The position numbers and the translations under genes were made by a program. 64,000 nt of DNA from an uncultured Gammaproteobacteria bacterium. GTDB taxonomy: Bacteria > Patescibacteriota > Patescibacteriia > Magasanikbacterales > GWA2-37-8. Each line of letters begins with the position of its first letter. Within the stretch, counting starts at the first letter, position 1. Location: positions 20,677-84,676 of the forward strand of contig CAYZGX010000002.1 of NCBI GenBank assembly GCA_964478235.1, in the 5' to 3' direction. Shown here piece after piece: positions 4,992 through 21,225 of this stretch. A model generated the notes under the pieces. That model was not told where the DNA came from. It worked only from the letters and a program-made list of their open reading frames with translations, and made no database searches.

Positions 4992-5011
4992 TTTTTTATA
5001 CCACCAAGGAT

Positions 5012-5866
5012 ATGTCCATTGGACGAGGGCTTGGAGCCTTAATTACCACAACCAACAGTGCTAAAAAGCCAGCTATTCAGTCGCGCGGGCTCGAAAGCTC
5101 CGATCGTGTCTGGCACGTGCCAGTGTCGGAGATTAAACCTGACAGCGACCAACCTCGTCGTCATTTTAAACCAGAAGAATTGCAAGAATTGTCTGACTCT
5201 ATCAAAGAGCATGGTATTTTGCAGCCGTTATTGGTGAGCGAACTGCCTGATGGTGGCTACCAGCTGATTGCTGGGGAGCGTCGCTGGCGTGCAGCTCAGA
5301 TGGCGCATATTGCCACCGTACCAGTGATTGTTAAAAAGCTGGCCGACGAACAGCGTCTCGAGGTCGCCTTGATTGAAAACATTCAGCGCCAAGACTTAAA
5401 TGCTCTTGAAGAAGGTTTTGCTTATAAGCGTCTCATTGAGGAATTTGGTTTGACGCAAGAACAAGTAGCTGACAAGGTGGGCAAAAGTCGTCCCGCTATC
5501 GCCAACATGATTCGTCTACTCAATCTTCCTGAAGAAGTACAAAATGCCCTGGTCACCGGAAAGATTTCCACTGGCCAAGCCAGATCGCTTCTTACTTTGG
5601 ATGATAAAAAACAACAGCTCGACATGCTCGCTTCAATGCTTGGAGAAAAAATGACCGTCCGCGAGGTAGAGAAGCAAGTACAAAAAACAACCGCACCAAC
5701 CAAGCTAGCTCGACGCGATCCAAACATCTTGTATGTCGAAGAGCAGCTCCGCTCAGCGCTCGGCACCAAAGTCACGGTGAATGGCAAAGACGACAAAGGT
5801 GCAGTGGTGATAAACTACTACTCCAAAGATGAGCTCAAAGAACTTATTAAAAAAATTACCGGTTAA
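5012..5866 (+). CDS. parB: Chromosome partitioning protein ParB/Spo0J
   Basis: ParB box GERRWRAA, an HTH region and a C-terminal dimerisation region. It is adjacent to parA. Confidence 0.9.
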   Translation: MSIGRGLGALITTTNSAKKPAIQSRGLESSDRVWHVPVSEIKPDSDQPRRHFKPEELQELSDSIKEHGILQPLLVSELPDGGYQLIAGERRWRAAQMAHIATVPVIVKKLADEQRLEVALIENIQRQDLNALEEGFAYKRLIEEFGLTQEQVADKVGKSRPAIANMIRLLNLPEEVQNALVTGKISTGQARSLLTLDDKKQQLDMLASMLGEKMTVREVEKQVQKTTAPTKLARRDPNILYVEEQLRSALGTKVTVNGKDDKGAVVINYYSKDELKELIKKITG

Positions 5867-9665: not shown

Positions 9666-9761
9666 AGGTAAGCGTTATAATGCCCATAGAATACCGGTTT
9701 TTGCCCGTTTTGTCAATTTTTGCTACTATAAAGGCACGCTTTTAGCCTTATCCTTCTACCT

Positions 9762-10208
9762 ATGGAAACTGAAAACCAGCAACCTGATCTCACCCGCCGG
9801 ATTGATCCCGTACTCGATGCGGCCGATGACCGCCTAAAGAAAAATGCCGGTAAAGAAAAACCGCTTCCTCGACAAGAGCAGGCTGTAGTGATAGACAGTG
9901 GTTATAAGGCTGAAGTGCTAGCAAAAAATGAGGCAAAAATGATGCAAGCTGAAGCCTTAAAGAAAGCTCGTGAGGATCGTTTTAAAGATTCAAACTATGT
10001 GCAAGAGTTACGAGGTGTTTTTCAAGCTCTTCAGCGTGGTGAATTGACGACTGATATTGACCGTCAAAAATTAGATGATATTGAAGCTTTAATTGATTTT
10101 AGCAAAAATGTTAAAGAGACAATGGATAAGGGGCATACTATGGTTTTTGATATGCACACCTCGGACGTCGCTGCGCAAGTGCTGACTAAACCAAAAAAAG
10201 TATCGTGA
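9762..10208 (+). CDS. Hypothetical charged protein
   Basis: 148-aa ORF with a downstream terminator. No recognisable motifs. Confidence 0.45.
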   Translation: METENQQPDLTRRIDPVLDAADDRLKKNAGKEKPLPRQEQAVVIDSGYKAEVLAKNEAKMMQAEALKKAREDRFKDSNYVQELRGVFQALQRGELTTDIDRQKLDDIEALIDFSKNVKETMDKGHTMVFDMHTSDVAAQVLTKPKKVS

Positions 10209-10333
10209 CCTAGAGCCGGTGAGCCTCGTGGGAGCACTAGAGGGCGCCAAGATATTTCCCCAGTCAAACCACCAACTCCGCCTGAAAAGAAGAAAGGTTT
10301 TCTCGCTCGATTATTTGGTTAAGCATTTGTATA

Positions 10334-10365
10334 AAACCGGCAAACATACTTTGTCGGTTTTTTTA
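10334..10365 (+). terminator. Intrinsic terminator between convergent genes
   Basis: aaccggcaaa...tttgtcggtt hairpin followed by ttttttt. Confidence 0.6.
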
Positions 10366-11247
10366 TTTGCGCTGTTTAGTTGGTGCGTAGTGAACGGCGT
10401 CAATTTTGATAATAAGACCGCTTAATTCCAAGGTAGTGAGCGTGCCAAGGAGGAGGGTATTAGACAAGTGGGTGAGCGTGGTAAGTTCATCGATTGTTCG
10501 GGGCATAATGGTGATTTCGGTCAGAACGATCTGCTCGGTTTCGGATAATGACAAGACCGGAGTGTTTACTTCTTGAATCACTGTGAGATGAAATAGTTCT
10601 AAAACATCTTCCACACTGGTAATAATAGAGGCTCCGCGTTTAATAAGGCTATTGCAACCTCGACCATAGAGCGAGGTAGTGGGGTGGGGCACAGCCATCA
10701 CTTCACGACCATATTCGAGAGCGTGGTAGGCGGTGATGAGTGCGCCGGATTTTTCGGGTGCTTCGACTACCAGCGTGCCGTGGGTAAGGCCAGCAATAAT
10801 TCGATTGCGAGCAGGGAAGGAGTATTGGGTGGGCCTAAAACCTTCTGGATATTCGCTCATAAGCGCTCCGCCAGAAGCAATAATTGTGTCAGCCAAGCCT
10901 CGGTGTGAGGCTGGATACACTGTGTGTTCATCAACTCCAGAGCCAAGAACAGCGAGCGTGGTTCCGCCGGCACGCAGGACCGCTTCGTGTACTTTACCAT
11001 CAATGCCGAGAGCCAGACCGCTCACGACCACCACTCCAATCCGAGCCAGTTCAAAAGACAACATTTCGGCCATATAGATACCATACGGGGTGGGGCGACG
11101 AGTGCCGACAATAGCAATATGCGGACGAGCGTCATCGGGCAGTGCTCCACGCACAAAAAGAGTATCCGGCGGACTGTGTATTTCGGCTAAACGGAGTGGG
11201 TAGTCGGTGTCGGAGCTCTGAATAGTGCGAATGTCTTCATGAGGCAT
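10363..11247 (-). CDS. dprA: DNA processing protein DprA/Smf
   Basis: Rossmann-like DprA motifs IAIVGTRRPTPYG and GLALGIDG, ending in EAPEKSGALITA. Confidence 0.85.
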   Translation of the reverse strand: MPHEDIRTIQSSDTDYPLRLAEIHSPPDTLFVRGALPDDARPHIAIVGTRRPTPYGIYMAEMLSFELARIGVVVVSGLALGIDGKVHEAVLRAGGTTLAVLGSGVDEHTVYPASHRGLADTIIASGGALMSEYPEGFRPTQYSFPARNRIIAGLTHGTLVVEAPEKSGALITAYHALEYGREVMAVPHPTTSLYGRGCNSLIKRGASIITSVEDVLELFHLTVIQEVNTPVLSLSETEQIVLTEITIMPRTIDELTTLTHLSNTLLLGTLTTLELSGLIIKIDAVHYAPTKQRK

Positions 11248-11300
11248 ATAAAAAAAGATAGACTATTGTCGTAGTCTATCAGGCGGGAGATAAAGAAAAG

Positions 11301-11831
11301 TTAAAGTAGTTGGCGAAGGTTATCAATAGCGTGATTGAAGATCTCGGATAGATGTTGCTGTTCTTCTTTGGTAAACTTCCCAAGAACAAAGTCAGCCGTG
11401 TCAGCAATAGGAGTTTCTTTGGGAGCAACACCAATGCGGAAACGAGTGAAATCGTTGGTACCAACTTTATCAATAATGGATTTCACACCATTATGACCAG
11501 CGGCGCCGCGAGCACTTTGAATGCGGATAGTGCCTAAAGGAATATCTTTATCGTCGTGAATAACAATGAGATCTTTTGGGGTGAGTTTGTAATAGGAGAG
11601 GAGGGCTTGAACAGCGTCACCAGAATTATTCATGAAAGTTTGCGGCTTCGCCAAGACAACGCGCTTGTCATAGAGTGCGGTTTTACAAATTTCGGCATGA
11701 TTTTTTCTATCCGGAGTGAACTGCTCTTCTTCGGTCATAGAGAGAATTCTGTCGAGCGTCAAAAAACCAACATTGTGACGGGTGAACATGTATTCTCTGC
11801 CAGGATTGCCAAGACCGACAATAAGTTTCAT
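11301..11831 (-). CDS. pth: Peptidyl-tRNA hydrolase
   Basis: MKLIVGLGNPG...TRHNVGF signature. Confidence 0.9.
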   Translation of the reverse strand: MKLIVGLGNPGREYMFTRHNVGFLTLDRILSMTEEEQFTPDRKNHAEICKTALYDKRVVLAKPQTFMNNSGDAVQALLSYYKLTPKDLIVIHDDKDIPLGTIRIQSARGAAGHNGVKSIIDKVGTNDFTRFRIGVAPKETPIADTADFVLGKFTKEEQQHLSEIFNHAIDNLRQLL

Positions 11832-11843
11832 ACAAATAAGACG

Positions 11844-13238
11844 TTAGTCTTTTGGGGCGTAGGTATGATGTTTGAGTTTGCTGAGCTTCATGACGATTGG
11901 AGCGGCAAAGAAGCCGAATTCAGCACGGAGACGATTAGCTACGAAGTGTACATAGGACATGTGCACCGAAGTGTTGGATTTGATAACCATTTCAAACATT
12001 GGCGGATTAAAACCAAGTTGATTGAGGGCGACCACGCGAGGGTGGCGAACACCGCGGTCTTTGGTTGGGAGTTTTTTGCGGAGAGTGCGTTTCAAGAAGT
12101 CTTTCAAAACCAATTCATCAACGACGATCTGACGACCTTCCCAGGCTTGTTTGATGAGTGGATAAATTTGGTGTACACGGTATTCGGTTTTGGCACTGAC
12201 AAATACCACTGGGGCATAGTCGAGGTGGGGGAACGAAACCAAAATATCTTTTTTAACATTATTGCGGAATTCATCACTATTGTCGTCGGCCTGATCCCAT
12301 TTGTTGACTACGATAATCACACTGCGAGTGTGCTCGCGGAGTAAGCCGGCTAATTGCTGGTCTTGATCGGAAATTGGTTCGGTAGCATCGAGTACGAGTA
12401 GAACGATGTCGGATTTGTTTACCGTCGCAATACTTTTGCTAATACCCATTTTTTCGAGTTCGCCGGATACTTTTGTTTTTCGGCGGATACCAGCGGTGTC
12501 AACGAAGAGAATGTGCTGACCGTCAACTTCAACGAGCGTATCGTGTGGTTCGCGAGTCGTATGTGGCATATCACTTACAATAACACGATCTTCACCGATG
12601 AGTTTGTTGAAGAGAGATGATTTACCAACATTTGGTTTGCCCATGATGGACACCTTGATAAGCGAGATATCATCTTTGATAGCCTTAGGTCGGCGTTTTG
12701 TTTTATTGAGTTGTTTGAAAACCAAATCAAGCACGTCGCCGATGTTGCTACCATTGGCTGCTGAAGTTGGGGTTGGAGCACCAAAACCAAGCTTCATCCA
12801 TTCCTTGTTATACACTTCAGTGTGCAAAGCGATGGTGTCGGCTTTGTTGGCTACCAAGAGAACCGGTTTTTTATCAACATTTTTCTTGAGGCGTCGAGCG
12901 AGCTCGCGTTCTTGAGGGAGAATACCTGAGGTGATATCAATCACAAACACAATCACATCAGCTTCTTTGAGAGCAATTTCTGTTTGTTTAATAATATCGT
13001 CTTCGAGCGGAACTTCTTCAGAAAAAGTGAGACCGCCGGTATCAATCATGCGGAATTGTTTACCGCGCCAGGTAGCAATCGCAACATTGCGAGTGCGGGT
13101 GGTACCAGGGATGTCGGAAACGAGGGCTAAATTTTGCTCAATAATTTTATTGAAAAGAGATGATTTACCAACATTAACACGGCCAACCAGAGCAACGGTA
13201 GGAAGGTTATTATCAATAATTGTAGCAGGTGTGGCCAT
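11844..13238 (-). CDS. der: Ribosome-associated GTPase Der/EngA
   Basis: Two tandem G domains (GRVNVGKSSLFN and GKPNVGKSSLFN) plus a KH-like C-terminus. Confidence 0.9.
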   Translation of the reverse strand: MATPATIIDNNLPTVALVGRVNVGKSSLFNKIIEQNLALVSDIPGTTRTRNVAIATWRGKQFRMIDTGGLTFSEEVPLEDDIIKQTEIALKEADVIVFVIDITSGILPQERELARRLKKNVDKKPVLLVANKADTIALHTEVYNKEWMKLGFGAPTPTSAANGSNIGDVLDLVFKQLNKTKRRPKAIKDDISLIKVSIMGKPNVGKSSLFNKLIGEDRVIVSDMPHTTREPHDTLVEVDGQHILFVDTAGIRRKTKVSGELEKMGISKSIATVNKSDIVLLVLDATEPISDQDQQLAGLLREHTRSVIIVVNKWDQADDNSDEFRNNVKKDILVSFPHLDYAPVVFVSAKTEYRVHQIYPLIKQAWEGRQIVVDELVLKDFLKRTLRKKLPTKDRGVRHPRVVALNQLGFNPPMFEMVIKSNTSVHMSYVHFVANRLRAEFGFFAAPIVMKLSKLKHHTYAPKD

Positions 13239-13247
13239 AATAGAGTT

Positions 13248-14705
13248 TTATTCTTTGGTGTCTGCGCCCAAGATAACAAGGACATCAGCTTCTTGGTTGT
13301 ATTTCATACCTGATTCGTCTTCGGTCGTCTCAGGGTTATTGTATCCAATGAGGAGCCAATCAGGCAAAACGGTGAGAACCGGCGCTTTGAGCTGATCGCT
13401 CAGAGCTTTGGTTGAAGCTCGAGAAACCGCTGGATTTAGCAAATAAATGGCTGTTTTCTCAATTGGGCGTTTTAAACTGTTCCCCACCGTTATAACAGAA
13501 AAACCCTTTTCTTGCAACCGTTCACGCATTCTAGCAGCCAAACCGACCCGCCAGGTGCCATTTTGAAGCTCCACCTTAAAGTTGGAATATACCACTGTCC
13601 CAGGGGTAGAAGTGGCTGGTTTTGGGTAGATTAAAGCTGGGGTGACCGCCAAAGAAGGGGTAGAAGTAGAGCTGAAAATACCAGCAATGGCAGTGTTGAC
13701 GTTGGTGTAGTCGCCAGTCTTTGGGAAGAGGAGAAATGCTCCACTCTCGCCGGTGGTGCTCACCAAAAAACCAGCTGGAGAGTTATCAAGCACGAGATTT
13801 TTTGGTGAAGAGCCAAACTCGCCGGCCATGCGTGCAAGAGAGGTCAACTCAGTGATACTTAGATTAGTGGTGACATGAGCTTTGAGCGAACTTAAAATTT
13901 GTTGGATGGTGAGTGGGTTAGTGTAAGTACCAGCGGACAGAAGCTTTTGTTTGAGCGACAGGATTACCAGCTGTTGGCGACGAGCGCGAGCAAAGTCACC
14001 GCCTTCACCGTTGTTGCCGTGGCGTGAGCGGGCAAAGGTGAGGGCTGTTTCGCCGTTCATCGTTTGCGGACCAGCTTCAAAACGAACAGTGCGGAAACTA
14101 AAATTTTCTCCAGGGAATTGTGTATCAGTAAAGGTGGTTGGCACGTTGACCTGCACTCCACCGACCGCATCAATCATATCGGTAAACGCTTTGAAATCCA
14201 CGCGAATATAATAGGGGATAGGTTGGTCAAAGGTTTTTTCAAATACTTGGCGAGCAAATTCACCGCCCTGACCTGGCGACTGTGCTTCGCCGTAGGCCCC
14301 AGCGTAGTTAATTTTTCGGACACCTTGGTTAGGAATAGTGACGCCCAAATCACGAGGGATAGAGATCATTGCCACTTCTTTGGTGGACGGTTTAATGCTG
14401 AGAATTAGGTTGGTATCGGTGAGATAGGGACCGTCATGACCAGCACCACCCATGCCAAGAAGTAGAATATTAATTCTATCTTCAGCTTGTCCTTGGAGAG
14501 ATGGTTCATCGGCAAAAATAAAGTTTTTGACCGTTTGAAGCAAGCCTTGTTCGCGAGGGTGCAAAGTGACGCCGGCAATAGTGAACGAAGATAAAGCTGA
14601 CCAAAAAAGAGCGCATAATAAAAAAAGACCAGCAAAGAGACTGATGAAAATAAGCGGTCGTTTGGAAGATTTTTTGGGAAGTAAATTAACTGGTTCGTTA
14701 GTCAT
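13248..14705 (-). CDS. LytR-CpsA-Psr (LCP) family cell-envelope phosphotransferase
   Basis: N-terminal TM segment. LCP core motifs INILLLGMG...DTNLILSI...ISIPRDL. The start is set at MTNEPVNLL. Confidence 0.75.
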   Translation of the reverse strand: MTNEPVNLLPKKSSKRPLIFISLFAGLFLLCALFWSALSSFTIAGVTLHPREQGLLQTVKNFIFADEPSLQGQAEDRINILLLGMGGAGHDGPYLTDTNLILSIKPSTKEVAMISIPRDLGVTIPNQGVRKINYAGAYGEAQSPGQGGEFARQVFEKTFDQPIPYYIRVDFKAFTDMIDAVGGVQVNVPTTFTDTQFPGENFSFRTVRFEAGPQTMNGETALTFARSRHGNNGEGGDFARARRQQLVILSLKQKLLSAGTYTNPLTIQQILSSLKAHVTTNLSITELTSLARMAGEFGSSPKNLVLDNSPAGFLVSTTGESGAFLLFPKTGDYTNVNTAIAGIFSSTSTPSLAVTPALIYPKPATSTPGTVVYSNFKVELQNGTWRVGLAARMRERLQEKGFSVITVGNSLKRPIEKTAIYLLNPAVSRASTKALSDQLKAPVLTVLPDWLLIGYNNPETTEDESGMKYNQEADVLVILGADTKE

Positions 14706-14835
14706 ACAGAAAAAAAGGACGTCGCAAGCATCGTTGTATAAGTATACCACAGTAAAGGTATAAATCAATCTTGGTTTTTTGTCGCCAGATATGCTATACT
14801 AAAGCCTAGTCTCTAGCTTTCTCAAAAAGAATAGT

Positions 14836-15339
14836 ATGCCAAAAGATCTTCTCAAAGAAAATGTGGCCACCGGACGGGTTGTCTATGAATGGTGGGTCAA
14901 AGAATACGAAAAAAGAGAGCGCTCCAAGCGCTGGTATATGATTGCTGCTATTAGTGTAGTGGGGCTTTTGGCGTACAGTCTTATTTCTCAAAATTATTTG
15001 TTTTCACTCATCGTCGTGTTATTTGGCATTATTGTCTATCTGCATGATATGCAGAATCCAATCGATGTTTATTTTGCTATCACCGAAGTAGGGGTTATTC
15101 TGGGTAAGAAATTTTATCGCTACAACGAACTTTCTACGTTTTGGATTATTTACAATCCGCCAGAGGTAAAAAATTTGTACTTTACCCTTAATAATATGGT
15201 AAAACATCGTTTACAAGTGCCTCTCCTTGATTATGATCCACGTCCGGTTCGTGACTATCTTAAAAAATTCCTCAAAGAAGATTTAGATCAAGAAGAAGAG
15301 CCGATGAGTGATCGCCTCGCTCGCACCTTTAAACTCTAG
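14836..15339 (+). CDS. Hypothetical membrane protein
   Basis: 167 aa with two hydrophobic helices. No recognisable motifs. Confidence 0.45.
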   Translation: MPKDLLKENVATGRVVYEWWVKEYEKRERSKRWYMIAAISVVGLLAYSLISQNYLFSLIVVLFGIIVYLHDMQNPIDVYFAITEVGVILGKKFYRYNELSTFWIIYNPPEVKNLYFTLNNMVKHRLQVPLLDYDPRPVRDYLKKFLKEDLDQEEEPMSDRLARTFKL

Positions 15340-15348
15340 AAGCCTACA

Positions 15349-15430
15349 GTAACAAACGCCATTGTAAGCGCAAAATCGTACCTACTGGACTTGACAAAAA
15401 CGGTACGAACGCTTACAATGGCGTTTGTTA
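15349..15430. repeat. Perfect 21-bp inverted repeat enclosing the tRNA-Arg promoter
   Basis: aacaaacgccattgtaagcg ... cgcttacaatggcgtttgtt. The right arm overlaps the -10 hexamer. Confidence 0.6.
15391..15419 (+). promoter_or_regulatory. Sigma70-type promoter of tRNA-Arg
   Basis: TTGACA, a 17-bp spacer, then TACAAT, about 21 nt upstream of the mature tRNA 5' end. Confidence 0.6.
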
Positions 15431-15440
15431 TCTAGCCCCT

Positions 15441-15512
15441 GCACTCATCGTTCAATGGATAGGACATTGGCCTGCGAAGCCGAAAATTTAGGTTCGACTC
15501 CTAATGAGTGCA
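15441..15512 (+). tRNA. tRNA-Arg, anticodon GCG by manual fold
   Basis: Acceptor GCACTCA/TGAGTGC, D-arm GTTC-AATGGATA-GGAC with A20, anticodon stem TTGGC/GCCGA, loop CTGCGAA, T-arm TTAGG-TTCGACT-CCTAA, discriminator A. Confidence 0.7.
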
Positions 15513-15594
15513 CAAACTCCGAGCCTGTTGAACAGGCTCAGCTCATCGAAAAACGGCGCTAACCTGCGCTGTTTTTCGTTTCACGAGCGTCGTT

Positions 15595-17052
15595 CTAGGC
15601 GGACGTGGTCCCGTCCCGAAGAGATTTCGAACCTTCGAGCAGTCCGCGAATCACGGGAGTGAGTCGAAGTGTCGGCTTCAGGCTCGACAGGTCGACGCGC
15701 TCAACCACGGTGGCGATCACCTCTCGGCGTTCGACCGGGTCAGTCGAGTTCTTGAGGGTGGTATCGAGACGCTCGAGTACCTGCTGCAGGCGGAGGTCGC
15801 CATCGCCAGGCTCTCGCTCGCGGCCGACCGCGAGTAGCCACTCGGTCGCGCGGATCTCGTCGCGGAGTTGCCGGCGGCGCTCCTCGTACTCGGATTCCTG
15901 CAGGTTCTGGTGGACGTAGGTCAGGGCGAGCGTCTTCAGTTCGCCATCGAGCCGTCGGCGTGCCGCTCGAAGCGCTCGGGTCCGTTCAGCCGAGTCCGCC
16001 CGTGCTGCCCGTCGAGCCGCTCGAATGCGGCGTTTCAGCACCGGCAGCAGGCGTGAGGGGAGGGCGGTGGCGAGTAGTTCGGCGGCGACTTCGTCCTCGA
16101 CGTCACCAGCTCGGCGCGAGTTCCGGCAGGCCTTCTGGTGGCACCGGTAGTACCGGTGCACCCGGCCCGACTTCTTCTTGTGCTCCTCGCCGACGAGGAG
16201 CGATCCGCACTGCGGACAGGCAACCAGCCGCGACAGCGTGAACGAGAGGGTCTGTCGAGCGCGGGCAGAATTGCCCCGTTTCGCTCGAAACACTGCCTGG
16301 CACCGTTCGAACAGATCTCGCGACACGAGCGGCGCGTGGGTTCCGGCGTACGTCCCGCCGCCGGCGACCATCGTGCCAACGTAGAACGGATTCTGGAGGA
16401 TCCGGCACAGCTCGGTGTTCCGGACGCGGTTGTTGTGGGTCGAGACGAGCCCTGCTCTCCAGAGTTCCTCGGCGAGCTGCTCGGACGTGAGGGTGCCGGT
16501 CGCCCAGCGGTCGAAGGCCAGCTGGATGAACCGCGCTCGTGCTGGATCAGGTACCGCTCGACGTCGCTCCATCCGGTACCCGATCGGAGGCAGTGAAGCC
16601 CAGACGCCGCGTCGTAGACGCTCGTCGAGGCCTTTTTTGACTTCAGCCGCCAGGTTGGCGGAGTAGAATTCTGCTTGTGCAGCCATAATGTGTTCAATGA
16701 ACTCGCCCATGGGGGAGGCCTCGATGGTCTCGACGACCGAGAGAACGCGGACGCCGACGGACCGGAGGCGTCCCTTGAGGACGAGATAGTTAAAGGTGTC
16801 GCGTGAAAGCCGGTCGAGCTTGTGGACGAGGAGTCCGTCGATCGACCGGTCACCGGTGGCCGCCTGGACGGCGGCCATGAGCCCCGGCCGATCCCTGAGG
16901 GAGCGCGCCGAGGCGATGTCTTGGAACCGACCTGCGACCGTGAGGTCGTGGTCCTTGGCGTAGTGTTCCATGAGGTGGAACTGCGCCGACAGCGAGAGCT
17001 CGCGGTCCGCCTGACGGGCGGTCGAGACGCGAGCGTAGAGGAGGATAGCCAT
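15595..17052 (-). CDS. Large serine recombinase (resolvase/integrase family)
   Basis: N-terminal catalytic domain (LYARVSTARQ with the catalytic Ser), a recombinase domain, a Cys4 zinc ribbon (CPQC...CHQKAC) and a C-terminal coiled coil. The gene is about 64% GC. Confidence 0.85.
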   Translation of the reverse strand: MAILLYARVSTARQADRELSLSAQFHLMEHYAKDHDLTVAGRFQDIASARSLRDRPGLMAAVQAATGDRSIDGLLVHKLDRLSRDTFNYLVLKGRLRSVGVRVLSVVETIEASPMGEFIEHIMAAQAEFYSANLAAEVKKGLDERLRRGVWASLPPIGYRMERRRAVPDPARARFIQLAFDRWATGTLTSEQLAEELWRAGLVSTHNNRVRNTELCRILQNPFYVGTMVAGGGTYAGTHAPLVSRDLFERCQAVFRAKRGNSARARQTLSFTLSRLVACPQCGSLLVGEEHKKKSGRVHRYYRCHQKACRNSRRAGDVEDEVAAELLATALPSRLLPVLKRRIRAARRAARADSAERTRALRAARRRLDGELKTLALTYVHQNLQESEYEERRRQLRDEIRATEWLLAVGREREPGDGDLRLQQVLERLDTTLKNSTDPVERREVIATVVERVDLSSLKPTLRLTPVIRGLLEGSKSLRDGTTSA

Positions 17053-17108
17053 ACGCGTTGGTTAGTGAGTGACGTAGGTATCCTGACAGAGTAGGGTAGC
17101 AGGTGACG

Positions 17109-17146
17109 AGAGTCCCGTCGCCGGTGCAAACCGGCACGTTTGTGCC
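17109..17146. repeat. Direct repeat DR1 (38 bp) upstream of the cargo gene, in the divergent promoter region
   Basis: gagtcccgtcgccggtgcaaaccggcacgtttgtgcc; 33 of 37 positions are identical to DR2. Confidence 0.7.
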
Positions 17147-17210
17147 TCTTTGCGCCATTGTCGGCTTCGGGGTGTCATGGTACGCTACGAGAATCCAGAA
17201 GGGGACCTAT

Positions 17211-18713
17211 ATGCCAAAAAAACAGAAAAAATTACTCATCTACTTCTCAGACTATTTCGACGTGGATCCGAAGACGATCCTCGAGTTTGGCGCGTTCAAC
17301 GTCTCCCTCATCAATGACCTCCCTCTATTTATCGATCCGTTTCTCCTGTTTAGCAGCGAGTCGGAGGAATACCGGACCCTGCACGCTGACATCATTCGCT
17401 ACGTCTCCTTTCTGCGAGACAAGGCAGCAACCGGGACGCTGCCGCCGGGCAACCTGAAGGCATGGTTCATGTTTCCCGAGGTCAAGCAGACGTGGCTTGG
17501 CTTCTCTCGGGTCGGCAACTCGGGCTCGGGGCTCGGAATGAACTTCGCCCAGGCTCTCTGCCGGAATCTTCACGCACTCTTTCAGGACTTCGGCGCAGAG
17601 AGTGTCACGAAGAGTAGCCACCTCGAAAAGCTCTGTCTGATCGACGATGGTGTTGGCCGCGACAATATCAGCGACTTCACAACTAACCTGATCAAGAAGT
17701 TCCTGCTCACCTACACGCAGGAGTTCGCGCAGACAAAGCTCAAGCCACACCAAAGGAAGGCGTTTCGAGTCCCCAAGGTCGAGTTCGACTATGACACGGA
17801 GACCTGGAGCCCCCGCACGTTTGTGCTCCCGTGCGTCGAAAACGACTTCGTCGTCCTGACGCCGCGTGACCTCCTCACGAAGGATGAAACTTGGATCAAC
17901 CGGACGGACCTCTACGAACAGTTCGACGACATCGTGCAGGCGGTGCCGGACGATCAGCTTCGCGCGCAGATCAACAACTATCTTGTGTCGAAGTTGCCAA
18001 AGCGAGGGCGAAAGGACAAGGAGCCGACCCAAAAGGAACGCCGTCTCGCTGTCGCGCTCGTCCTTCAGAAATATCCCACGCTGCTCGATTACTACCTTCG
18101 CCACAAAGAGGACAGCGGCGATGAGGCCGAGGCAATCTCTGAGCGTCGAGTCGACGAATCCGAGACTGTTTTCATCAAGGGAGTGCTGAGATTCGTGGAG
18201 CAATTGTCTCAGGAAACGCAGTTCTATGAGACGAGCGATAGCTCGCATGCTGAGGCGAGGAAGCGCGTCTTGTTTCTGAAGGACGTCATCGAGAACATGG
18301 ATGGCTACCGCCTCTTCTACGGGGCCAACAGGAAGCCAGTGCGTCGAGAGGCCGATGTCCATCTCCTGTTTCGACTCACCTGGTACGCGACTTTGCAGGA
18401 TGTAAATCGAGAGGTGAACAATGGGCGTGGGCCAGTCGACTTCAAGGTCTCGCGCGGCGCTCGAAACGCCAGTCTCGTTGAGTTCAAACTAGCGTCGAAC
18501 AGTAAGCTCGAGTCCAACCTGGCGAATCAGGTCGAGATCTACAAGCGCGCTAGTGGAGCCGAGCATGCGCTTAAAGTCATCGTGTACTTCACGCGATCTG
18601 AGCTCGCCAGGGTGAATCGGATTTTGAAGAAGCTCGAACTGCGCGAAGATCCAAACGTGATTCTGATTGATGCGCGTGGCGACAACAAACCGTCCGCATC
18701 CAAGGTTCGCTAA
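17211..18713 (+). CDS. Hypothetical 500-aa cargo protein with a C-terminal RecB-like PD-(D/E)xK nuclease motif set
   Basis: The start is at MPKKQKK (17211). The C-terminus carries GPVDFKV (D), LVEFKL (ExK) and QVEIY (QxxxY). The N-terminal 350 aa has no recognisable family. About 62% GC. Confidence 0.65.
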   Translation: MPKKQKKLLIYFSDYFDVDPKTILEFGAFNVSLINDLPLFIDPFLLFSSESEEYRTLHADIIRYVSFLRDKAATGTLPPGNLKAWFMFPEVKQTWLGFSRVGNSGSGLGMNFAQALCRNLHALFQDFGAESVTKSSHLEKLCLIDDGVGRDNISDFTTNLIKKFLLTYTQEFAQTKLKPHQRKAFRVPKVEFDYDTETWSPRTFVLPCVENDFVVLTPRDLLTKDETWINRTDLYEQFDDIVQAVPDDQLRAQINNYLVSKLPKRGRKDKEPTQKERRLAVALVLQKYPTLLDYYLRHKEDSGDEAEAISERRVDESETVFIKGVLRFVEQLSQETQFYETSDSSHAEARKRVLFLKDVIENMDGYRLFYGANRKPVRREADVHLLFRLTWYATLQDVNREVNNGRGPVDFKVSRGARNASLVEFKLASNSKLESNLANQVEIYKRASGAEHALKVIVYFTRSELARVNRILKKLELREDPNVILIDARGDNKPSASKVR

Positions 18714-18766
18714 TTCTGATGGATGAGTCGTGCCGCCTCGTCCGAACCACTTCTTAGCGAACGATA

Positions 18767-18804
18767 AGAGTCTCTTCGCCGGTGCAAAACGGCACGTTCG
18801 TGCC
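18767..18804. repeat. Direct repeat DR2 (38 bp) downstream of the cargo gene
   Basis: gagtctcttcgccggtgcaaaacggcacgttcgtgcc. Confidence 0.7.
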
Positions 18805-18867
18805 GGTGCCAACGTCGATTTCCGCTGAGGTTTGCGAAAGTGCAGTTCTAAGATAGTCCTCTCTTGT

Positions 18868-18912
18868 GCACGAAATAAAATACCCCCATTTATGGGGGTA
18901 TTTTATTTCGTG
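18868..18912. repeat. Perfect 20-bp-stem palindrome
   Basis: cacgaaataaaataccccca-ttta-tgggggtattttatttcgtg. Confidence 0.8.
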
Positions 18913-19056
18913 TTCTCTTTAAGAGGAGTCGAACGGGGAAGGGAGAAACCGGAAGGTTTCTCATGCGGAGGAAAGGTATCGGAAAACCCGAAGGTTTTTC
19001 CGAAGAGGTCCCGACTTGGTCGGGACCGAGTTCGACTCCGGTGTAAACAGTAGCAG

Positions 19057-19150
19057 ATAAAACATAGGGCCGATATGCTTTTTCTCCTGATGCCCCGGCA
19101 TATGTCAAAAAAGCATATCGGCCCTATGTTTTTGTTTTTCTCACCCCCTT
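19057..19150 (+). terminator. Very long perfect hairpin plus U-run immediately upstream of recG
   Basis: aaaacatagggccgatatgcttttt ... aaaaagcatatcggccctatgtttt, a 22-24-bp stem with a nested palindromic loop, followed by tttttgttttt. Confidence 0.6.
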
Positions 19151-19170
19151 GGTGCTATACTACCGCCACT

Positions 19171-21225
19171 ATGGAATTGACCACTCGCTTGGCCCAGCTA
19201 CCTCGTGTAGGAAAATCAACAGTTGCCCGCTTAGAACGCCTCGGCCTCAGGACCGTCTATGATTTGTTATATTATTTCCCATTTCGTTACGAAGATTTCC
19301 GCCAGTGTCTGCCGATTAAACAACTAATTGAAGGCCAGGCGGTGACGGTCAAAGGCCGGATTGAGCTTATCGCCAATCGGCGTAGTTTTAAAACGAGAAA
19401 AACAATTACCGAAGCGCTGGTCTCTGATGAATCGGGGAGTCTCCGGGTGATTTGGTTTAACCAGCCGTTTATTACCAACAACCTGGCTTCTGGGGACGCG
19501 GTGTATCTGTCGGGAGTGGTGAAATCAGATATGCTCGGGCCACAGCTTGTTGGTCCAACTTATGAAAAGGTGGTTGGCGAAGCCGTGCATACCGCTCGGT
19601 TGGTTCCGGTGTATGGCATTACCGAAGGTTTGCCTCAAAAACAAATCAGACAAATGGTAAAATATTGTGTAGACTCGCTTAAAGAAGTTCCCGATTGGGT
19701 ACCAGACATTATCAAAGAGCGCTTTGATCTTCCGCCGCTGATTGGTGCAATTCACGGCATTCATTTTCCAAGCGACGATGCGCACCTCGCTGAGAGCACT
19801 CGTCGACTTAAATTTGATGAGTTATTTTTGTTGCAACTTCAAGCCGAAATTGCTCGGCGTGACCGGGTGGCATCGTCTGCTCCAGCTTTGGTATTTCAAG
19901 AAACCAACATCAAAGAGTTTGTAGCCAAGCTGCCATTTACTCTCACTAAAACACAAAAAATAGCGACCTGGGAAATTTTAAAAGATATTGCTGAGCCTCG
20001 GCCGATGAATCGCCTGCTCTCGGGTGATGTTGGCTCGGGGAAGACGGTGGTGGCCGCTATCGCCCTCTACAACACTGCGCTCAATGGCTTCCAAGGTGTT
20101 CTTATGGCGCCAACCGAGATTTTGGCCAGCCAACATTTCGAAGGTGTTTCTAAACTACTTTCTACCCTGCCGGTCGCTTTAGTAACTCGTACGCAAAGAT
20201 ATGTGAGTGACAACGGAGTGGTGACTAAGGTCACCAAAAAAGCTCTCCACACTATGCTTGCCGAAGGAAAAATAGCGGTAAGCATCGGAACGCACGCGCT
20301 CCTCACTGAAGCGGTGCATTTTAAACAGCTCGGCCTCGTGATCGTCGATGAACAGCACCGTTTTGGGGTAATGCAGCGAAAAATTATGAAAGACAAAGGC
20401 GCTGGTGCGCATTTTTTGAGTATGACTGCTACCCCGATTCCACGCTCGCTCGCGCTCATGCTCTATGGCGATTTGGAAGTTTCTATTATTAGCGAACTGC
20501 CTCCAGGGCGAAAGAAGATTATCACCAAAGTAGTTGAGCCGGCCAAACGTGAGAAAGCCTATGGCTTTATTCGCGACCAAGTCAAAGCTGGGCGACAAGT
20601 ATTTGTGGTCTGCCCGCTGATTGAAGGGGTGGGGCAGGGGACAGTGGAGAAAAAATCCGTGATGATGGAGTATGAAAAACTATCGACGATTATTTTTCCA
20701 GATTTGAAAGTTGGTTTTTTACATGGAAAATTAAAACCAGAAGAAAAAGAAGCGGTGATGGAGCAATTTGAAAAAAATGAAATACATATTCTCGTCTCAA
20801 CCTCAGTTATTGAGGTGGGGGTGAATATTCCGAACGCCAGTATTATGATGATTGAAGGTGCCGACCGTTTTGGTCTCGCCCAGCTTCACCAATTTCGCGG
20901 GCGGGTGGGGCGATCGAGTTATCAGTCGTATTGTTTACTTTTTACTGACAACACCGCCAAAGCAGTTGTAGAGCGGTTGGGATATTTTGAAGCCCACCAT
21001 GATGGCTTTGCCTTGGCTGAAAAAGATTTAGAAATTCGCGGACCTGGGCAAATGTACGGGGTGGAGCAGAGTGGGTCAATGCGTTTGCGCCTCGCCACAC
21101 TATCAGACAGTGAAATTGTAAAACAAGCTCGGGAAGCTGCCCGGGGTATCGCGCCCAATCTGGCCAACTACCCTCCACTACAAAAAATGCTCCACGAGGT
21201 GGAGCAAAGTTTGCACTTGGAATAG
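19171..21225 (+). CDS. recG: ATP-dependent DNA helicase RecG
   Basis: Wedge-domain N-terminus, helicase motifs GDVGSGKT, DEQHRFG and QLHQFRGRVGR. The start is at MELTTRL; the upstream extension lies inside the palindrome. Confidence 0.9.
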   Translation: MELTTRLAQLPRVGKSTVARLERLGLRTVYDLLYYFPFRYEDFRQCLPIKQLIEGQAVTVKGRIELIANRRSFKTRKTITEALVSDESGSLRVIWFNQPFITNNLASGDAVYLSGVVKSDMLGPQLVGPTYEKVVGEAVHTARLVPVYGITEGLPQKQIRQMVKYCVDSLKEVPDWVPDIIKERFDLPPLIGAIHGIHFPSDDAHLAESTRRLKFDELFLLQLQAEIARRDRVASSAPALVFQETNIKEFVAKLPFTLTKTQKIATWEILKDIAEPRPMNRLLSGDVGSGKTVVAAIALYNTALNGFQGVLMAPTEILASQHFEGVSKLLSTLPVALVTRTQRYVSDNGVVTKVTKKALHTMLAEGKIAVSIGTHALLTEAVHFKQLGLVIVDEQHRFGVMQRKIMKDKGAGAHFLSMTATPIPRSLALMLYGDLEVSIISELPPGRKKIITKVVEPAKREKAYGFIRDQVKAGRQVFVVCPLIEGVGQGTVEKKSVMMEYEKLSTIIFPDLKVGFLHGKLKPEEKEAVMEQFEKNEIHILVSTSVIEVGVNIPNASIMMIEGADRFGLAQLHQFRGRVGRSSYQSYCLLFTDNTAKAVVERLGYFEAHHDGFALAEKDLEIRGPGQMYGVEQSGSMRLRLATLSDSEIVKQAREAARGIAPNLANYPPLQKMLHEVEQSLHLE

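What the first reader, a model, noticed from the sequence alone, without database searches (positions are those of the whole stretch)
17109..18804. 38-bp direct repeats, each with a palindromic core, bracket the cargo gene
gagtcccgtcgccggtgcaaaccggcacgtttgtgcc at 17109-17146 and gagtctcttcgccggtgcaaaacggcacgttcgtgcc at 18767-18804 match at 33 of 37 positions, in direct orientation, 1.66 kb apart. They flank the cargo ORF exactly. DR1 sits in the divergent promoter region between the recombinase and the cargo gene. Each contains the small palindrome GTGC-N-GCAC. They could be recombinase recognition sites, which would make the cargo an excisable cassette. They could equally be binding sites for a regulator acting at both ends. 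Duplicated promoter or terminator modules are a third option. Direct repeats of this length are not a standard feature of large-serine-recombinase att sites, so the arrangement is unusual.
Basis: seen in the sequence. Interest (0 to 1): 0.7.

Follow-up and report, generated by a model that had tools for sequence, protein, structure and literature searches.

The report
Duplicated control site brackets captured gene
Two 38-base repeats inside a small mobile island of a Patescibacteria-type genome are two copies of a palindromic stretch that sits once in front of the recombinase gene in the closest relative; they mark where a candidate anti-phage gene was spliced in and are not the sites at which the island moves.

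Summary
The repeats are real: 17109-17146 and 18767-18804, 34 of 38 identical, direct, and the only two copies in the window. They are not a dispersed repeat.

They are not the island's attachment sites. The island is about 3.35 kb (15514-18865) and GC-rich in a low-GC host. It is bounded by a 6-bp GTGCAC core at the 3' end of tRNA-Arg(GCG) and just before a host terminator. Two neighbouring Logan contigs from one sample overlap by exactly k-1 at the tRNA-side core. The island contig also ends exactly one 31-mer past the other core and has no break at the repeats. This suggests an empty-site allele coexists, and it gives no sign of repeat-by-repeat deletion.

Relatives of the recombinase form recombinase-only elements of about 1.8 kb. 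The closest one (60% identity) carries one homologue of the repeat between its left end and the recombinase start. In the window, a 1.62-kb module sits between the two copies. It is a DUF8370/DUF8371 gene that matches the PADLOC candidate PDC-M36A.

DR1 lies within a 34-bp palindrome between the divergent genes and is probably an operator. DR2 is a partial copy. No relative shows repeat-flanked cargo. The cassette-site reading is unsupported but not excluded. Interest is moderate to low.

The parts
15441..15513 (+). tRNA-Arg(GCG), the host target. Its last 6 nt are the crossover core.
   Evidence: ARAGORN; Rfam tRNA 62 bits. A related Magasanikbacteria genome (L022) has the same LytR-p167-tRNA-Arg(GCG) site occupied by a 45%-identical recombinase.
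15508..15513 (.). GTGCAC core at the tRNA-side junction of the island (attL/attR type).
   Evidence: The same hexamer is at 18866-18871. Logan contig L188 ends at 15513 and L020 starts at 15484, an overlap of exactly 30 = k-1. GTGCAC or CGTGC cores occur at the ends of related elements L003/L005, L022 and L024.
15514..15594 (.). Right-end arm of the island: hairpin GAGCCTGTTGAACAGGCTC (15521-15539) and a terminator-like hairpin (15547-15578) after the recombinase stop.
   Evidence: Inverted repeat I20. The same layout (terminator hairpin, CCTGTT..AACAGGCTC, GTGCAC, tRNA-Arg) is seen in L022, and a similar terminator hairpin in L003 and L006.
15595..17052 (-). Large serine recombinase, 485 aa, 65.8% GC.
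   Evidence: Pfam Resolvase 9e-28, Recombinase 7e-10, Zn_ribbon_recom 6e-7. R8 and S10 are invariant in the family alignment. Relatives are mostly Patescibacteria.
17053..17108 (-). Inner upstream region of the recombinase. It contains the block TCACCTGCTACCCT (putative extended -10) and the ACTCACTAACC motif before the ATG.
   Evidence: Homologous to the region just upstream of the ATG in L006 (local alignment p<0.001). The motif is conserved in all close relatives. The promoter assignment is inference; the consensus scan found no sigma-70 match.
17109..17146 (.). DR1, the copy contiguous with the recombinase promoter region.
   Evidence: Homologous to a single-copy segment of L006 (p = 0.002). 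Agrees with L006 at 3 of the 4 positions where DR1 and DR2 differ.
17123..17156 (.). 34-bp palindrome GGTGCAAACCGGCAC-GTTT-GTGCCTCTTTGCGCC, a putative operator between the divergent genes.
   Evidence: Read from the sequence. Folding z-scores are -4.5 and -4.1 on the two strands. Arms match at 12 of 15 positions, plus a perfect inner GGCAC/GTGCC.
17147..17210 (+). Cargo leader, part of the inserted module, with promoter-like TTGTCG-17-TACGCT and GAAGGGGA before the ATG.
   Evidence: Not similar to L006 (p = 0.46). The promoter was read by eye and is below the threshold of the consensus scan.
17211..18713 (+). Cargo gene, 500 aa, 55.2% GC: DUF8370 + DUF8371, a candidate defence protein.
   Evidence: PADLOC PDC-M36A 3e-21. 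Precomputed PF28123/PF28130. Homologues sit beside DUF1156, DUF499, GmrSD and PLD-helicase genes. No PDB or NCBIfam match by sequence. The AlphaFold model (pLDDT 75) has no significant fold match.
18714..18766 (+). Cargo 3' flank, part of the inserted module.
   Evidence: Not similar to L006 (p = 0.39).
18767..18804 (.). DR2, a partial copy. It keeps CGGCACG-TT-CGTGCCG but not the outer arm of the large palindrome.
18805..18865 (.). Left-end (outer) arm of the island.
   Evidence: Lies between DR2 and the core. outer+DR1+inner (155 nt) aligns colinearly with the 170-nt end-to-ATG region of L006 (p<0.001). The outer part alone is not significant.
18866..18871 (.). GTGCAC core at the far junction.
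   Evidence: Logan contig L020 ends at 18895, which is the last 31-mer containing the island-specific base 18865.
18869..18912 (+). Host intrinsic terminator (21-bp perfect arms plus a T run). Inferred to be the original tRNA-Arg terminator, now serving the cargo.

Best explanation
The repeats are two copies of one ~38-bp piece of the recombinase gene's own upstream control region. They mark the seam where a passenger module was spliced into a minimal, recombinase-only serine-recombinase element.

Shown:
- The mobile unit is the whole ~3.35-kb GC-rich island. It is joined to the host at a 6-bp GTGCAC core inside the 3' end of tRNA-Arg(GCG) and in front of a host terminator.
- The closest relative is a recombinase-only element that has one homologue of the repeat between its left end and the recombinase ATG.
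- In the window, a 1620-bp stretch of different composition (leader plus DUF8370/DUF8371 gene) lies between the two copies.
- Deleting it together with one copy would restore the minimal architecture: 155 nt from core to ATG, against 170 nt in the relative.

Inferred:
- DR1 keeps the full 34-bp palindrome and lies just upstream of the conserved promoter-like block of the recombinase. By my reading of two weak promoters, it is about equally far from both. It most likely works as a dimer-binding operator that controls recombinase expression and perhaps the cargo. The binding protein is unknown; the recombinase itself is the only DNA-binding protein recognised in the island.
- DR2 lacks the outer arm, sits in the cargo's 3' untranslated region and is most likely a passive leftover of the capture event.
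- The pair offers 34/38 homology for occasional deletion of the cargo, but there is no evidence that this happens.
- The capture mechanism is unresolved. It could be a staggered break at the palindrome with fill-in, recombination with a second DNA carrying a similar site, or tandem elements followed by deletion.
For: - Repeat real and unique. A degenerate pattern covering DR1, DR2 and the L006 homologue gave only 8 chance hits in coding regions of unrelated high-GC metagenome contigs, and none in viral contigs.
- Island limits: GC jumps from 35-50% to 60-70%. GTGCAC is at both junctions.
- Logan contigs of SRR12487046: L188 = 8611-15513, and L020 = 15484-18895 at 100% identity. They overlap by exactly 30 nt at a branching node that ends at the tRNA-side core. 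L020's other end, 18895, closes the last 31-mer holding an island-specific base next to the second core. Logan uses k = 31 (PMC12424806).
- Minimal elements: L003:5763-7525 equals L005:1560-3323 at 99.9% in two different host contexts, ending at CGTGC next to tRNA-Arg(TCG). L006 is recombinase-only.
- Homology of the repeat to a single-copy segment: alignment A1. outer+DR1+inner against L006 gives p<0.001; DR1 p = 0.002; inner p<0.001. The sequences just inside the repeats are not similar, p about 0.4.
- Composition: recombinase 65.8% GC, cargo 55.2%, host genes 39-48%.
- Palindrome.
- The four DR1/DR2 mismatches all avoid the palindrome arms (read from the sequence; chance about 0.07).
- No similarity of the repeats to inferred attP or attB.
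Against: - There is only one instance. None of about 90 recombinase loci screened shows repeat-flanked cargo, so the insertion-at-this-site idea cannot be replicated.
- The closest relative is only 60% identical. The outer arm is not demonstrably homologous (p = 0.58).
- The consensus scan found no sigma-70 promoter in the region, so the operator and promoter geometry rests on my reading of weak matches.
- Palindromes at the equivalent place in L006 and L007 have only 6-8-bp arms, which is near chance expectation.
- 89% rather than 100% identity means the duplication is either old or arose from two non-identical sites, which would favour a site-specific or two-element origin.
- No protein is known to bind the palindrome.
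Confidence: 0.55

Rival explanations
1. Cassette sites. DR1 and DR2 are secondary site-specific recombination sites, recognised by the island's serine recombinase or by a host enzyme. A circular cargo cassette was integrated through them and can be excised again, as in SCC/ECC composite elements or an integron attI/attC pair.
For: An insert flanked by imperfect direct repeats, one of which corresponds to a pre-existing site, is the classic footprint of site-specific integration. The sites are palindromic. The layout, with the recombinase divergent from the cassette and the site at the recombinase promoter, resembles an integron. CcrAB-type serine recombinases use direct-repeat att sites (PMC6222049). 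There is a weak resemblance of DR2 to the left arm of the inferred attP (17/25, p about 0.1) and a shared GCACAAAC with the core region. The family tolerates insertion next to resident elements: tandem arrays occur in L003 and L024.
Against: The repeats lack the GTGCAC core and have no significant similarity to attP or attB. The dyad motifs of the real arms (CACAA..TT(A)GAAC) are absent from the repeats (read from the sequence). No relative has different cargo between such repeats. The Logan contig runs through both repeats without a branch, so no recombinant was present at detectable level. The cargo module appears to carry its own leader and promoter. The cargo's closest homologues elsewhere have no such flanks.
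Confidence: 0.12
2. Relic of two elements. The island descends from two related elements integrated in tandem. DR2 plus the outer arm is the left end of an older element that carried the cargo, and DR1 belongs to the present recombinase. An internal deletion removed the junction between them, leaving only the best-conserved part of the two upstream regions as a repeat.
For: Tandem arrays with repeated left ends are seen in this family: L003 has 76-nt and 223-nt left-end copies, and L024 has a 37-nt copy that includes the GTGCAC core. 89% identity fits two diverged elements better than a fresh duplication. The recombinase and cargo differ in GC.
Against: In the observed tandems the repeat always starts at the GTGCAC core. 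Here the core and the 61-nt outer arm are present once only. The model needs an extra deletion and an ancestral element in which the cargo already abutted the repeat. No element with cargo in place of the recombinase was found.
Confidence: 0.15
3. Both copies work. A regulator binds DR1 and DR2 and bridges them (DNA looping) to control the cargo and the recombinase from both ends.
For: The palindrome arms GGTGCAAA, GGCAC and GTGCC are identical in both copies, and all four mismatches fall outside them (chance about 0.07). DR1 is in the divergent promoter region.
Against: DR2 lacks the outer right arm of the 34-bp palindrome, and its context has no excess folding. The nearest relative manages with one copy. 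No separate regulator gene is recognised in the island.
Confidence: 0.1
4. Structural hairpins. The GC-rich stem-loop in each repeat acts at the RNA level as a terminator, insulator or stabiliser. It would block read-through into the recombinase (minus strand: GGCAC-GAAC-GUGCC followed by GUUUUG) and end or stabilise the cargo transcript.
For: Stem-loops of 5-7 bp are present in both copies, with short U tracts on the minus strand. Insulating a transposase from outside transcription is common in insertion sequences (general knowledge).
Against: No site passes the terminator scan. The U tracts are only 3-4 nt. The L006 homologue has no U tract. There is no Rfam match at either repeat. The cargo already has the strong host terminator at 18869-18912.
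Confidence: 0.05
5. Chance similarity, or a member of a dispersed genomic repeat family unrelated to the island.
For: None found.
Against: 0 expected in shuffles. There are only two copies in 64 kb, both inside the compositionally foreign island. There were no related hits in metagenome or viral contig scans.
Confidence: 0.01

Closest known systems
Integrative elements and prophages moved by large serine recombinases (phiC31, Bxb1, A118/LI integrase type; TnpX/TndX transposons)
   Same: The same three-domain recombinase. The element is bounded by junctions that share only a short core (6 bp). The inferred attP has imperfect dyad symmetry (TTGTGCACAA core, TT(A)GAAC about 18-25 nt out on both arms). 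Insertion preserves the target gene (the tRNA 3' end).
   Different: Very small: relatives are recombinase-only units of about 1.8 kb, and this one carries a single passenger gene. It targets tRNA 3' ends. No directionality factor is visible. It has an internal 38-bp duplication that is not part of the att sites.
SCCmec / ECC cassette chromosomes (CcrAB large serine recombinases) and their composite, multi-repeat forms
   Same: A serine recombinase plus variable cargo. Direct repeats delimit cargo segments. Tandem accretion at one chromosomal site occurs, and is seen in relatives L003 and L024. NCBIfam gives weak CcrA/CcrB similarity, far below cut-off.
   Different: In SCC/ECC every repeat carries the recombinase's core recognition motif and lies at an element boundary (PMC6222049). 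Here the repeats lack the GTGCAC core, are internal, and do not resemble attP or attB.
res site of Tn3/gamma-delta, in the divergent tnpA-tnpR promoter region (autoregulation by a serine resolvase)
   Same: Dyad-symmetric sites between a serine recombinase gene and a divergent gene. The idea is that a recombinase-family protein could repress its own promoter there (a functional analogy only).
   Different: That system uses a small resolvase with a C-terminal helix-turn-helix and three subsites. Here the recombinase is large, there is one palindrome, and no binding is shown.
Integron platform (intI, attI, divergent cassettes ending in attC)
   Same: The gene order is the same: recombinase, site at its promoter, divergently oriented cargo, second palindromic site.
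   Different: Integrons use a tyrosine recombinase, promoterless cassettes, and short shared core sites (about 7 bp) with folded single-stranded attC. None of these was shown here.
IS607-family and other serine-recombinase insertion sequences
   Same: Minimal mobile units that consist essentially of a serine recombinase gene and short ends. NCBIfam gives a weak IS607 hit over the catalytic domain only.
   Different: IS607 transposases are small, with an N-terminal DNA-binding domain and low target specificity. These are large serine recombinases with tRNA-specific integration.

Membership tests
Large-serine-recombinase integrative element | Recombinase with Resolvase catalytic domain, Recombinase domain and zinc beta-ribbon domain | tested here: met
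   Pfam PF00239 9e-28, PF07508 7e-10, PF13408 6e-7, all above the curated cut-offs.
Large-serine-recombinase integrative element | Catalytic serine and arginines conserved | tested here: met
   R8, S10, R55, R81 and R84 are invariant in a 23-sequence family alignment.
Large-serine-recombinase integrative element | Element bounded by attL/attR that share only a short crossover core, so that attB can be reconstructed | tested here: met
   GTGCAC at 15508-15513 and 18866-18871. The reconstructed attB is an intact tRNA-Arg 3' end plus its terminator. The GC boundary coincides. The same site is occupied in L022.
Large-serine-recombinase integrative element | Evidence of mobility (empty site, or the same element in different contexts) | tested here: inconclusive
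   Indirect for this island: L188 and L020 overlap by exactly k-1 at the tRNA-side core, and L020 ends exactly one 31-mer past the other core, implying an alternative allele there. Direct for a relative: L003 and L005 are 99.9% identical in two contexts. No empty-site sequence was retrieved.
SCC/ECC-like cassette chromosome (repeats = att sites) | Each direct repeat contains the recombinase's core recognition motif shared with attB | tested here: not met
   The repeats lack GTGCAC. The best alignments to inferred attP/attB are not significant (p of 0.09 or more).
SCC/ECC-like cassette chromosome (repeats = att sites) | Repeats lie at the boundaries of the mobile segments, and the content between them varies among relatives | tested here: not met
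   DR1 is internal and DR2 is 61 nt inside the junction. No other locus among about 90 has repeat-flanked cargo. L181 has a divergent cargo without such repeats.
Integron | Tyrosine recombinase IntI; promoterless cassettes; attC sites | tested here: not met
   The recombinase is of the serine type. The cargo has a 64-nt leader with promoter-like hexamers (read from the sequence). attC folding was not assessed.
Transposon target-site duplication | Short (2-15 bp), initially identical duplication directly abutting the element's terminal repeats | tested here: not met
   The duplication is 38 bp at 89% identity. No terminal inverted repeats lie just inside the copies.
Dispersed repeat (REP/MITE-like) | Many copies scattered in the genome or in other genomes | tested here: not met
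   Two copies in 64 kb. Metagenome and viral scans gave only unrelated coding-region hits or none. The rest of the host genome was not available.
Operator of an autoregulated recombinase promoter (Tn3 res-like function) | A protein binds the dyad-symmetric site and changes promoter activity | not testable with these tools
   Only position and symmetry are shown. The consensus promoter scan was negative.
PADLOC candidate defence system PDC-M36 (cargo) | Match to the PDC-M36A profile and a defence-island neighbourhood | tested here: met
   PDLC04597 3e-21 over residues 29-257. Homologues lie next to GmrSD, DUF499, DUF1156 and PLD-helicase genes. Anti-phage activity itself was not tested.

The most novel reading that the evidence does not exclude
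The palindrome next to the recombinase promoter is a dedicated docking site, a serine-recombinase counterpart of an integron attI. Promoter-bearing defence cassettes would be inserted and removed there, so these minimal tRNA-targeting elements of Patescibacteria would act as exchangeable single-gene defence carriers, with DR1/DR2 as the hybrid sites left by one such insertion.
Probability: 0.1. Interest if true: 0.75.

Novelty: new variant of a known kind. Interest (0 to 1): 0.35.

Why it matters
The case shows how a recombinase-only mobile element can turn into a one-gene defence carrier. These elements are about as simple as a site-specific integrative element can be. The acquisition seam is still readable here: a duplicated piece of the recombinase's own control region.

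Patescibacteria have tiny genomes and few described mobile elements. A family of tRNA-targeting large serine recombinases with a compact, palindromic GTGCAC core is therefore useful for annotation, and possibly as compact integrases. So is the indication that one member is polymorphic in a natural population.

The repeats themselves are most likely a by-product of gene capture and not a new recombination system. If the cassette-docking reading were true, it would be a new way of exchanging defence genes.

Tried and rejected
- Dispersed repeat: rejected.
- Repeats as the island's att sites: rejected once the GTGCAC junctions were located.
- Similarity of the repeats to inferred attP or attB: not significant. 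A shared 10-mer (CGTTTGTGCC) with the L003 upstream region is on the opposite strand and near chance.
- Rfam families at the repeats: none.
- Intrinsic terminators or sigma-70 promoters at the repeats: none by the consensus scan.
- Repeat-flanked cargo in relatives: not found. I screened 220 nt upstream of about 90 recombinase genes. I also inspected L001, L008, L022, L024, L181 and L184. The only repeats found were left ends of tandem neighbouring elements.
- Repeat-like flanks around the closest cargo homologues (L009-L011): none.
- Extension of the repeat into its flanks: not significant.
- A conserved palindrome in the upstream regions of relatives: suggestive only, because 6-bp arms are expected by chance.
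- Cargo function: no PDB or NCBIfam sequence match. The fold search of a pLDDT-75 model gave nothing below E = 0.1. Several of the weak top hits are nucleases (N.BspD6I, Can2, PspGI), but none is significant.
- Viral contigs hold only distant recombinase relatives, at most 34% identity.
- Literature searches for PDC-M36 and for large serine recombinases in Patescibacteria found nothing.
Full report
**Observation.** The two repeats exist as described. They lie at 17109-17146 and 18767-18804, match at 34 of 38 positions, are in direct orientation, and are spaced 1658 bp start to start. A 28-nt consensus with up to three mismatches finds only these two sites in the 64-kb window, and none in 100 dinucleotide-preserving shuffles. 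Each copy holds GTGC-N6-GCAC and a tighter GGCAC-N4-GTGCC. The repeats bracket the cargo ORF but do not abut it. DR1 ends 64 nt before the ATG at 17211, and DR2 begins 53 nt after the stop at 18713. Only DR1 is part of a larger palindrome, GGTGCAAACCGGCAC-GTTT-GTGCCTCTTTGCGCC at 17123-17156. Its folding energy is 4.5 sd below shuffles, whereas the DR2 context is unremarkable.

**Setting.** The repeats lie inside a compositional island. GC rises from 35-50% to 60-70% at about 15580 and falls again at about 18850. The island begins immediately after tRNA-Arg(GCG) at 15441-15513.
- It holds a 485-aa large serine recombinase on the minus strand (15595-17052). The protein has Resolvase, Recombinase and zinc-ribbon domains, and the catalytic residues are conserved.
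- It also holds a divergent 500-aa gene (17211-18713). This gene matches the PADLOC candidate defence profile PDC-M36A (3e-21) and carries Pfam DUF8370 + DUF8371.
- Homologues of the cargo are widespread. They sit beside GmrSD, DUF499, DUF1156 and PLD-helicase genes, which is a defence-island neighbourhood.
- The cargo's biochemical function stays unknown. There is no PDB or NCBIfam match, and a pLDDT-75 model has no significant fold match.
- Flanking host genes (LytR, a 167-aa protein, RecG) are low-GC.

**Real junctions of the island.** The hexamer GTGCAC occurs at 15508-15513, the last bases of the tRNA. It occurs again at 18866-18871, directly in front of a perfect 21-bp-arm terminator hairpin with a T run at 18869-18912. 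Joining the two host sides gives an intact tRNA followed by its terminator, which is the inferred attB. Joining the island ends gives TTGTGCACAA, flanked on both sides by TT(A)GAAC at about 18-25 nt. This imperfect dyad is what a large-serine-recombinase attP is expected to show (my reading of the sequence).

Independent support comes from relatives:
- In L022, a Magasanikbacteria genome, the same LytR-p167-tRNA-Arg(GCG) site is followed by GTGCAC. The same right-end hairpin CCTGTT..AACAGGCTC and a 45%-identical recombinase follow.
- L003:5763-7525 and L005:1560-3323 are 99.9% identical in two unrelated contexts. They consist of the recombinase gene only, and in L005 the right end abuts tRNA-Arg(TCG) at a CGTGC core present at both junctions.
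- In L008, a tRNA-Ala gene lies just after the recombinase stop.

The family therefore consists of minimal, tRNA-targeting, recombinase-only elements that sometimes carry extra genes (L001, L022, L024, L181).

**Population evidence.** Three Logan contigs from one sequencing run (SRR12487046) match the window at 100%. L188 covers 8611-15513, L020 covers 15484-18895, and L189 starts at 18936. Logan assemblies are de Bruijn graphs with k = 31 in which every 31-mer occurs once. Contigs shorter than 150 bp are not reported, and k-mers seen once are discarded (PMC12424806).

L188 and L020 overlap by exactly 30 nt. The shared 30-mer ends with the GTGCAC core. At the other side, L020 stops at the last 31-mer that still contains an island-specific base. 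My inference is that the 30-mers 15484-15513 and 18866-18895 are branch nodes. If so, the sample also contains DNA in which the tRNA end is followed by something other than the island, and the terminator is preceded by something other than the island. The simplest case is the empty site, whose 54-nt path would be too short to be reported.

The island contig extends past both cores, so a circular attP junction was not present at detectable level. It runs through both repeats without a break, so a DR1 x DR2 recombinant was not detectable either. Rare variants would be missed. A related strain (L190, SRR12487035) has a different tRNA and terminator joined at about 18926, so this is a variable spot.

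**What the repeat is.** The closest recombinase relative (P0122, 60% identity) lies on L006, a recombinase-only element in a low-GC host. Its 170-nt stretch between the end core (CGTGC) and the ATG contains one segment homologous to the repeat. This segment is followed by a block that matches the window's sequence between DR1 and the recombinase ATG, TCACCTGCTAC...ACTCAC.TAAC...ACGCGTATG.

A hypothetical deletion product of the window (outer arm 18805-18865 + DR1 + inner region 17053-17108, 155 nt) aligns colinearly with that 170-nt stretch, better than all 1000 shuffles. Taken separately:
- DR1 gives p = 0.002 and the inner region p<0.001.
- The outer arm is not significant on its own.
- The sequences immediately inside the repeats (17147-17210 and 18714-18766) are not similar to L006, p about 0.4.

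DR1 agrees with L006 at three of the four positions where DR1 and DR2 differ. The cargo (55% GC) and the recombinase (66% GC) differ in composition. So the cargo module plus one repeat copy is an addition to a minimal element. Equivalently, the minimal form is what remains when the cargo and one copy are removed. The repeat is a duplicated piece of the recombinase's own upstream region.

- Dispersed repeat: a degenerate pattern that covers DR1, DR2 and the L006 homologue hit eight metagenome contigs. All hits were inside coding regions of unrelated high-GC DNA without the recombinase or cargo. There were no hits in viral contigs.
- Recombinase sites: the repeats lack the GTGCAC core, and their best alignments to the inferred attP and attB are not significant. 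The best case is 17/25 between DR2 and the left arm, p about 0.1.
- Variation of cargo between the same repeats: I took the 220 nt upstream of the recombinase gene in about 90 loci and searched each locus for a second copy. Only the window (and its Logan twin) and the tandem arrays of L003/L004 and L024 gave hits. In those arrays the repeat is the whole left end starting at the core. L181, a 50%-identical relative with a divergent 894-aa PHP/ATPase gene, has no such flanking repeats.
- RNA elements: there is no Rfam family at the repeats. No terminator-like or sigma-70-like site passes the consensus scans.

**Most likely function (inference).** DR1 with its full 34-bp palindrome lies just upstream of the conserved block CACCTGCTACCCT. 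I read this block as an extended -10 of the recombinase promoter. Its centre is about 53-55 nt from the start points I would predict for the recombinase promoter and for a cargo promoter (TTGTCG-17-TACGCT, 17160-17188). All four DR1/DR2 differences avoid the palindrome arms (chance about 0.07). L006 (GGCGCA-N12-TGCGCC) and L007 (CGTGCG-N12-CGCACG) have short palindromes at the equivalent place, but arms of this length are near chance expectation.

I therefore take the sequence to be a dimer-binding operator of the recombinase promoter. DR2 would be a partial, probably inert copy now lying in the cargo's 3' untranslated region. How the duplication arose cannot be decided from one instance. The options are a staggered break at the palindrome with fill-in, integration of a second DNA carrying a similar site, or two tandem elements followed by deletion.

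**Comparison with known systems.**
- The island as a whole is an ordinary, if unusually small, large-serine-recombinase integrative element.
- The repeats fail the defining tests for SCC/ECC-type att repeats: there is no core motif, they are not at element boundaries, and no variable content was found.
- The gene order recalls an integron, and the position recalls the res site of Tn3. The defining features of both are absent or untestable here.

**Verdict.** The cassette interpretation is not supported but not excluded, at about 0.1. The best account, at about 0.55, is a duplicated control-region segment marking the capture of a candidate defence gene by a minimal serine-recombinase element that is itself polymorphic at a tRNA-Arg site. 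This is a new variant of a known kind, of moderate to low interest.

Noticed in passing
window 15484-15513 and 18866-18895; loci L020, L188, L189: Logan contigs L188 and L020 of run SRR12487046 overlap by exactly k-1 = 30 nt at the tRNA-side GTGCAC core. L020 ends exactly one 31-mer past the other core. This implies an alternative (probably empty-site) allele in the same sample, so the island seems polymorphic in nature.
   Followed up: partly
L003:5763-7525 = L005:1560-3323; L006; L024:5851-8090: Relatives of the recombinase form recombinase-only mobile units of about 1.8 kb that insert at tRNA 3' ends with a (C)GTGC(AC) core. They also occur in tandem with remnants of related elements, with left-end copies at L003:7515-7590, L003:10903-11124 and L024:8084-8120.
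   Followed up: partly
window 17062-17072 (minus strand), and 10-20 nt before the recombinase ATG in L001, L003, L006, L007, L008, L022, L023, L024: A motif like TTACTCTTAACC (ACTCACTAACC in the window) is conserved just before the start codon in all close relatives. It is often inside a hairpin (for example L008 GAATGGTTAA-CTC-TTAACCATTC and L023 CTGAGGTGGT..ACCACCTCAG). It may be a translational control element of the recombinase.
   Followed up: no
window 18925-19040 (+): Between the island and RecG lies a stretch of about 115 nt that folds into a closed four-way junction. The closing stem is 10 bp (GGAGUCGAAC/GUUCGACUCC), with three hairpins, two of them with GGAA/CGAA loops. Folding is at z = -4.6. 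The stretch is conserved in the related strain L190. It is not called by ARAGORN and does not reach any Rfam threshold. It may be an unannotated small RNA.
   Followed up: partly
L190:1-123 versus window upstream of about 18926: A closely related strain (99.98% identical downstream) has a different tRNA 3' end and a different terminator at this position instead of the tRNA-Arg, island and terminator. The spot in front of RecG is therefore a variable region.
   Followed up: no
window 15350-15370 / 15410-15430: A perfect 21-nt inverted repeat with a 39-nt spacer lies between the 167-aa gene and tRNA-Arg. It is a long hairpin of unknown role just upstream of the tRNA.
   Followed up: no
window 19059-19132 and ORF 19075-21225: A 36-nt-arm inverted repeat (86% complementary) overlaps the first 19 codons of the RecG ORF as listed. 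An in-frame ATG at 19171 begins a typical RecG N-terminus (MELTTRLAQLPRVGK...), so the true start is probably there and the hairpin is intergenic.
   Followed up: no
L181:1037-3721: A 50%-identical recombinase relative carries a divergent 894-aa gene with PHP and AAA_21/SMC_N ATPase hits. It looks like another defence-type passenger in the same position, but it has no flanking repeats.
   Followed up: partly
L184:2046-2192, 5009-5242: In another relative, the recombinase region lies between tRNA-Ser genes and duplicated tRNA-Ser fragments. These include a 74-nt segment repeated at 100% identity 141 bp apart. This suggests repeated integration or excision at a tRNA-Ser site.
   Followed up: no
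L001:3876-3935 and 5224-5283: A 60-nt repeat (88% identical) with an internal hairpin (CCCCCTGAAC..GTTCAGGG) occurs twice, once inside a called 535-aa ORF next to the recombinase. It may be a small repeat element, or the ORF call may be wrong.
   Followed up: no
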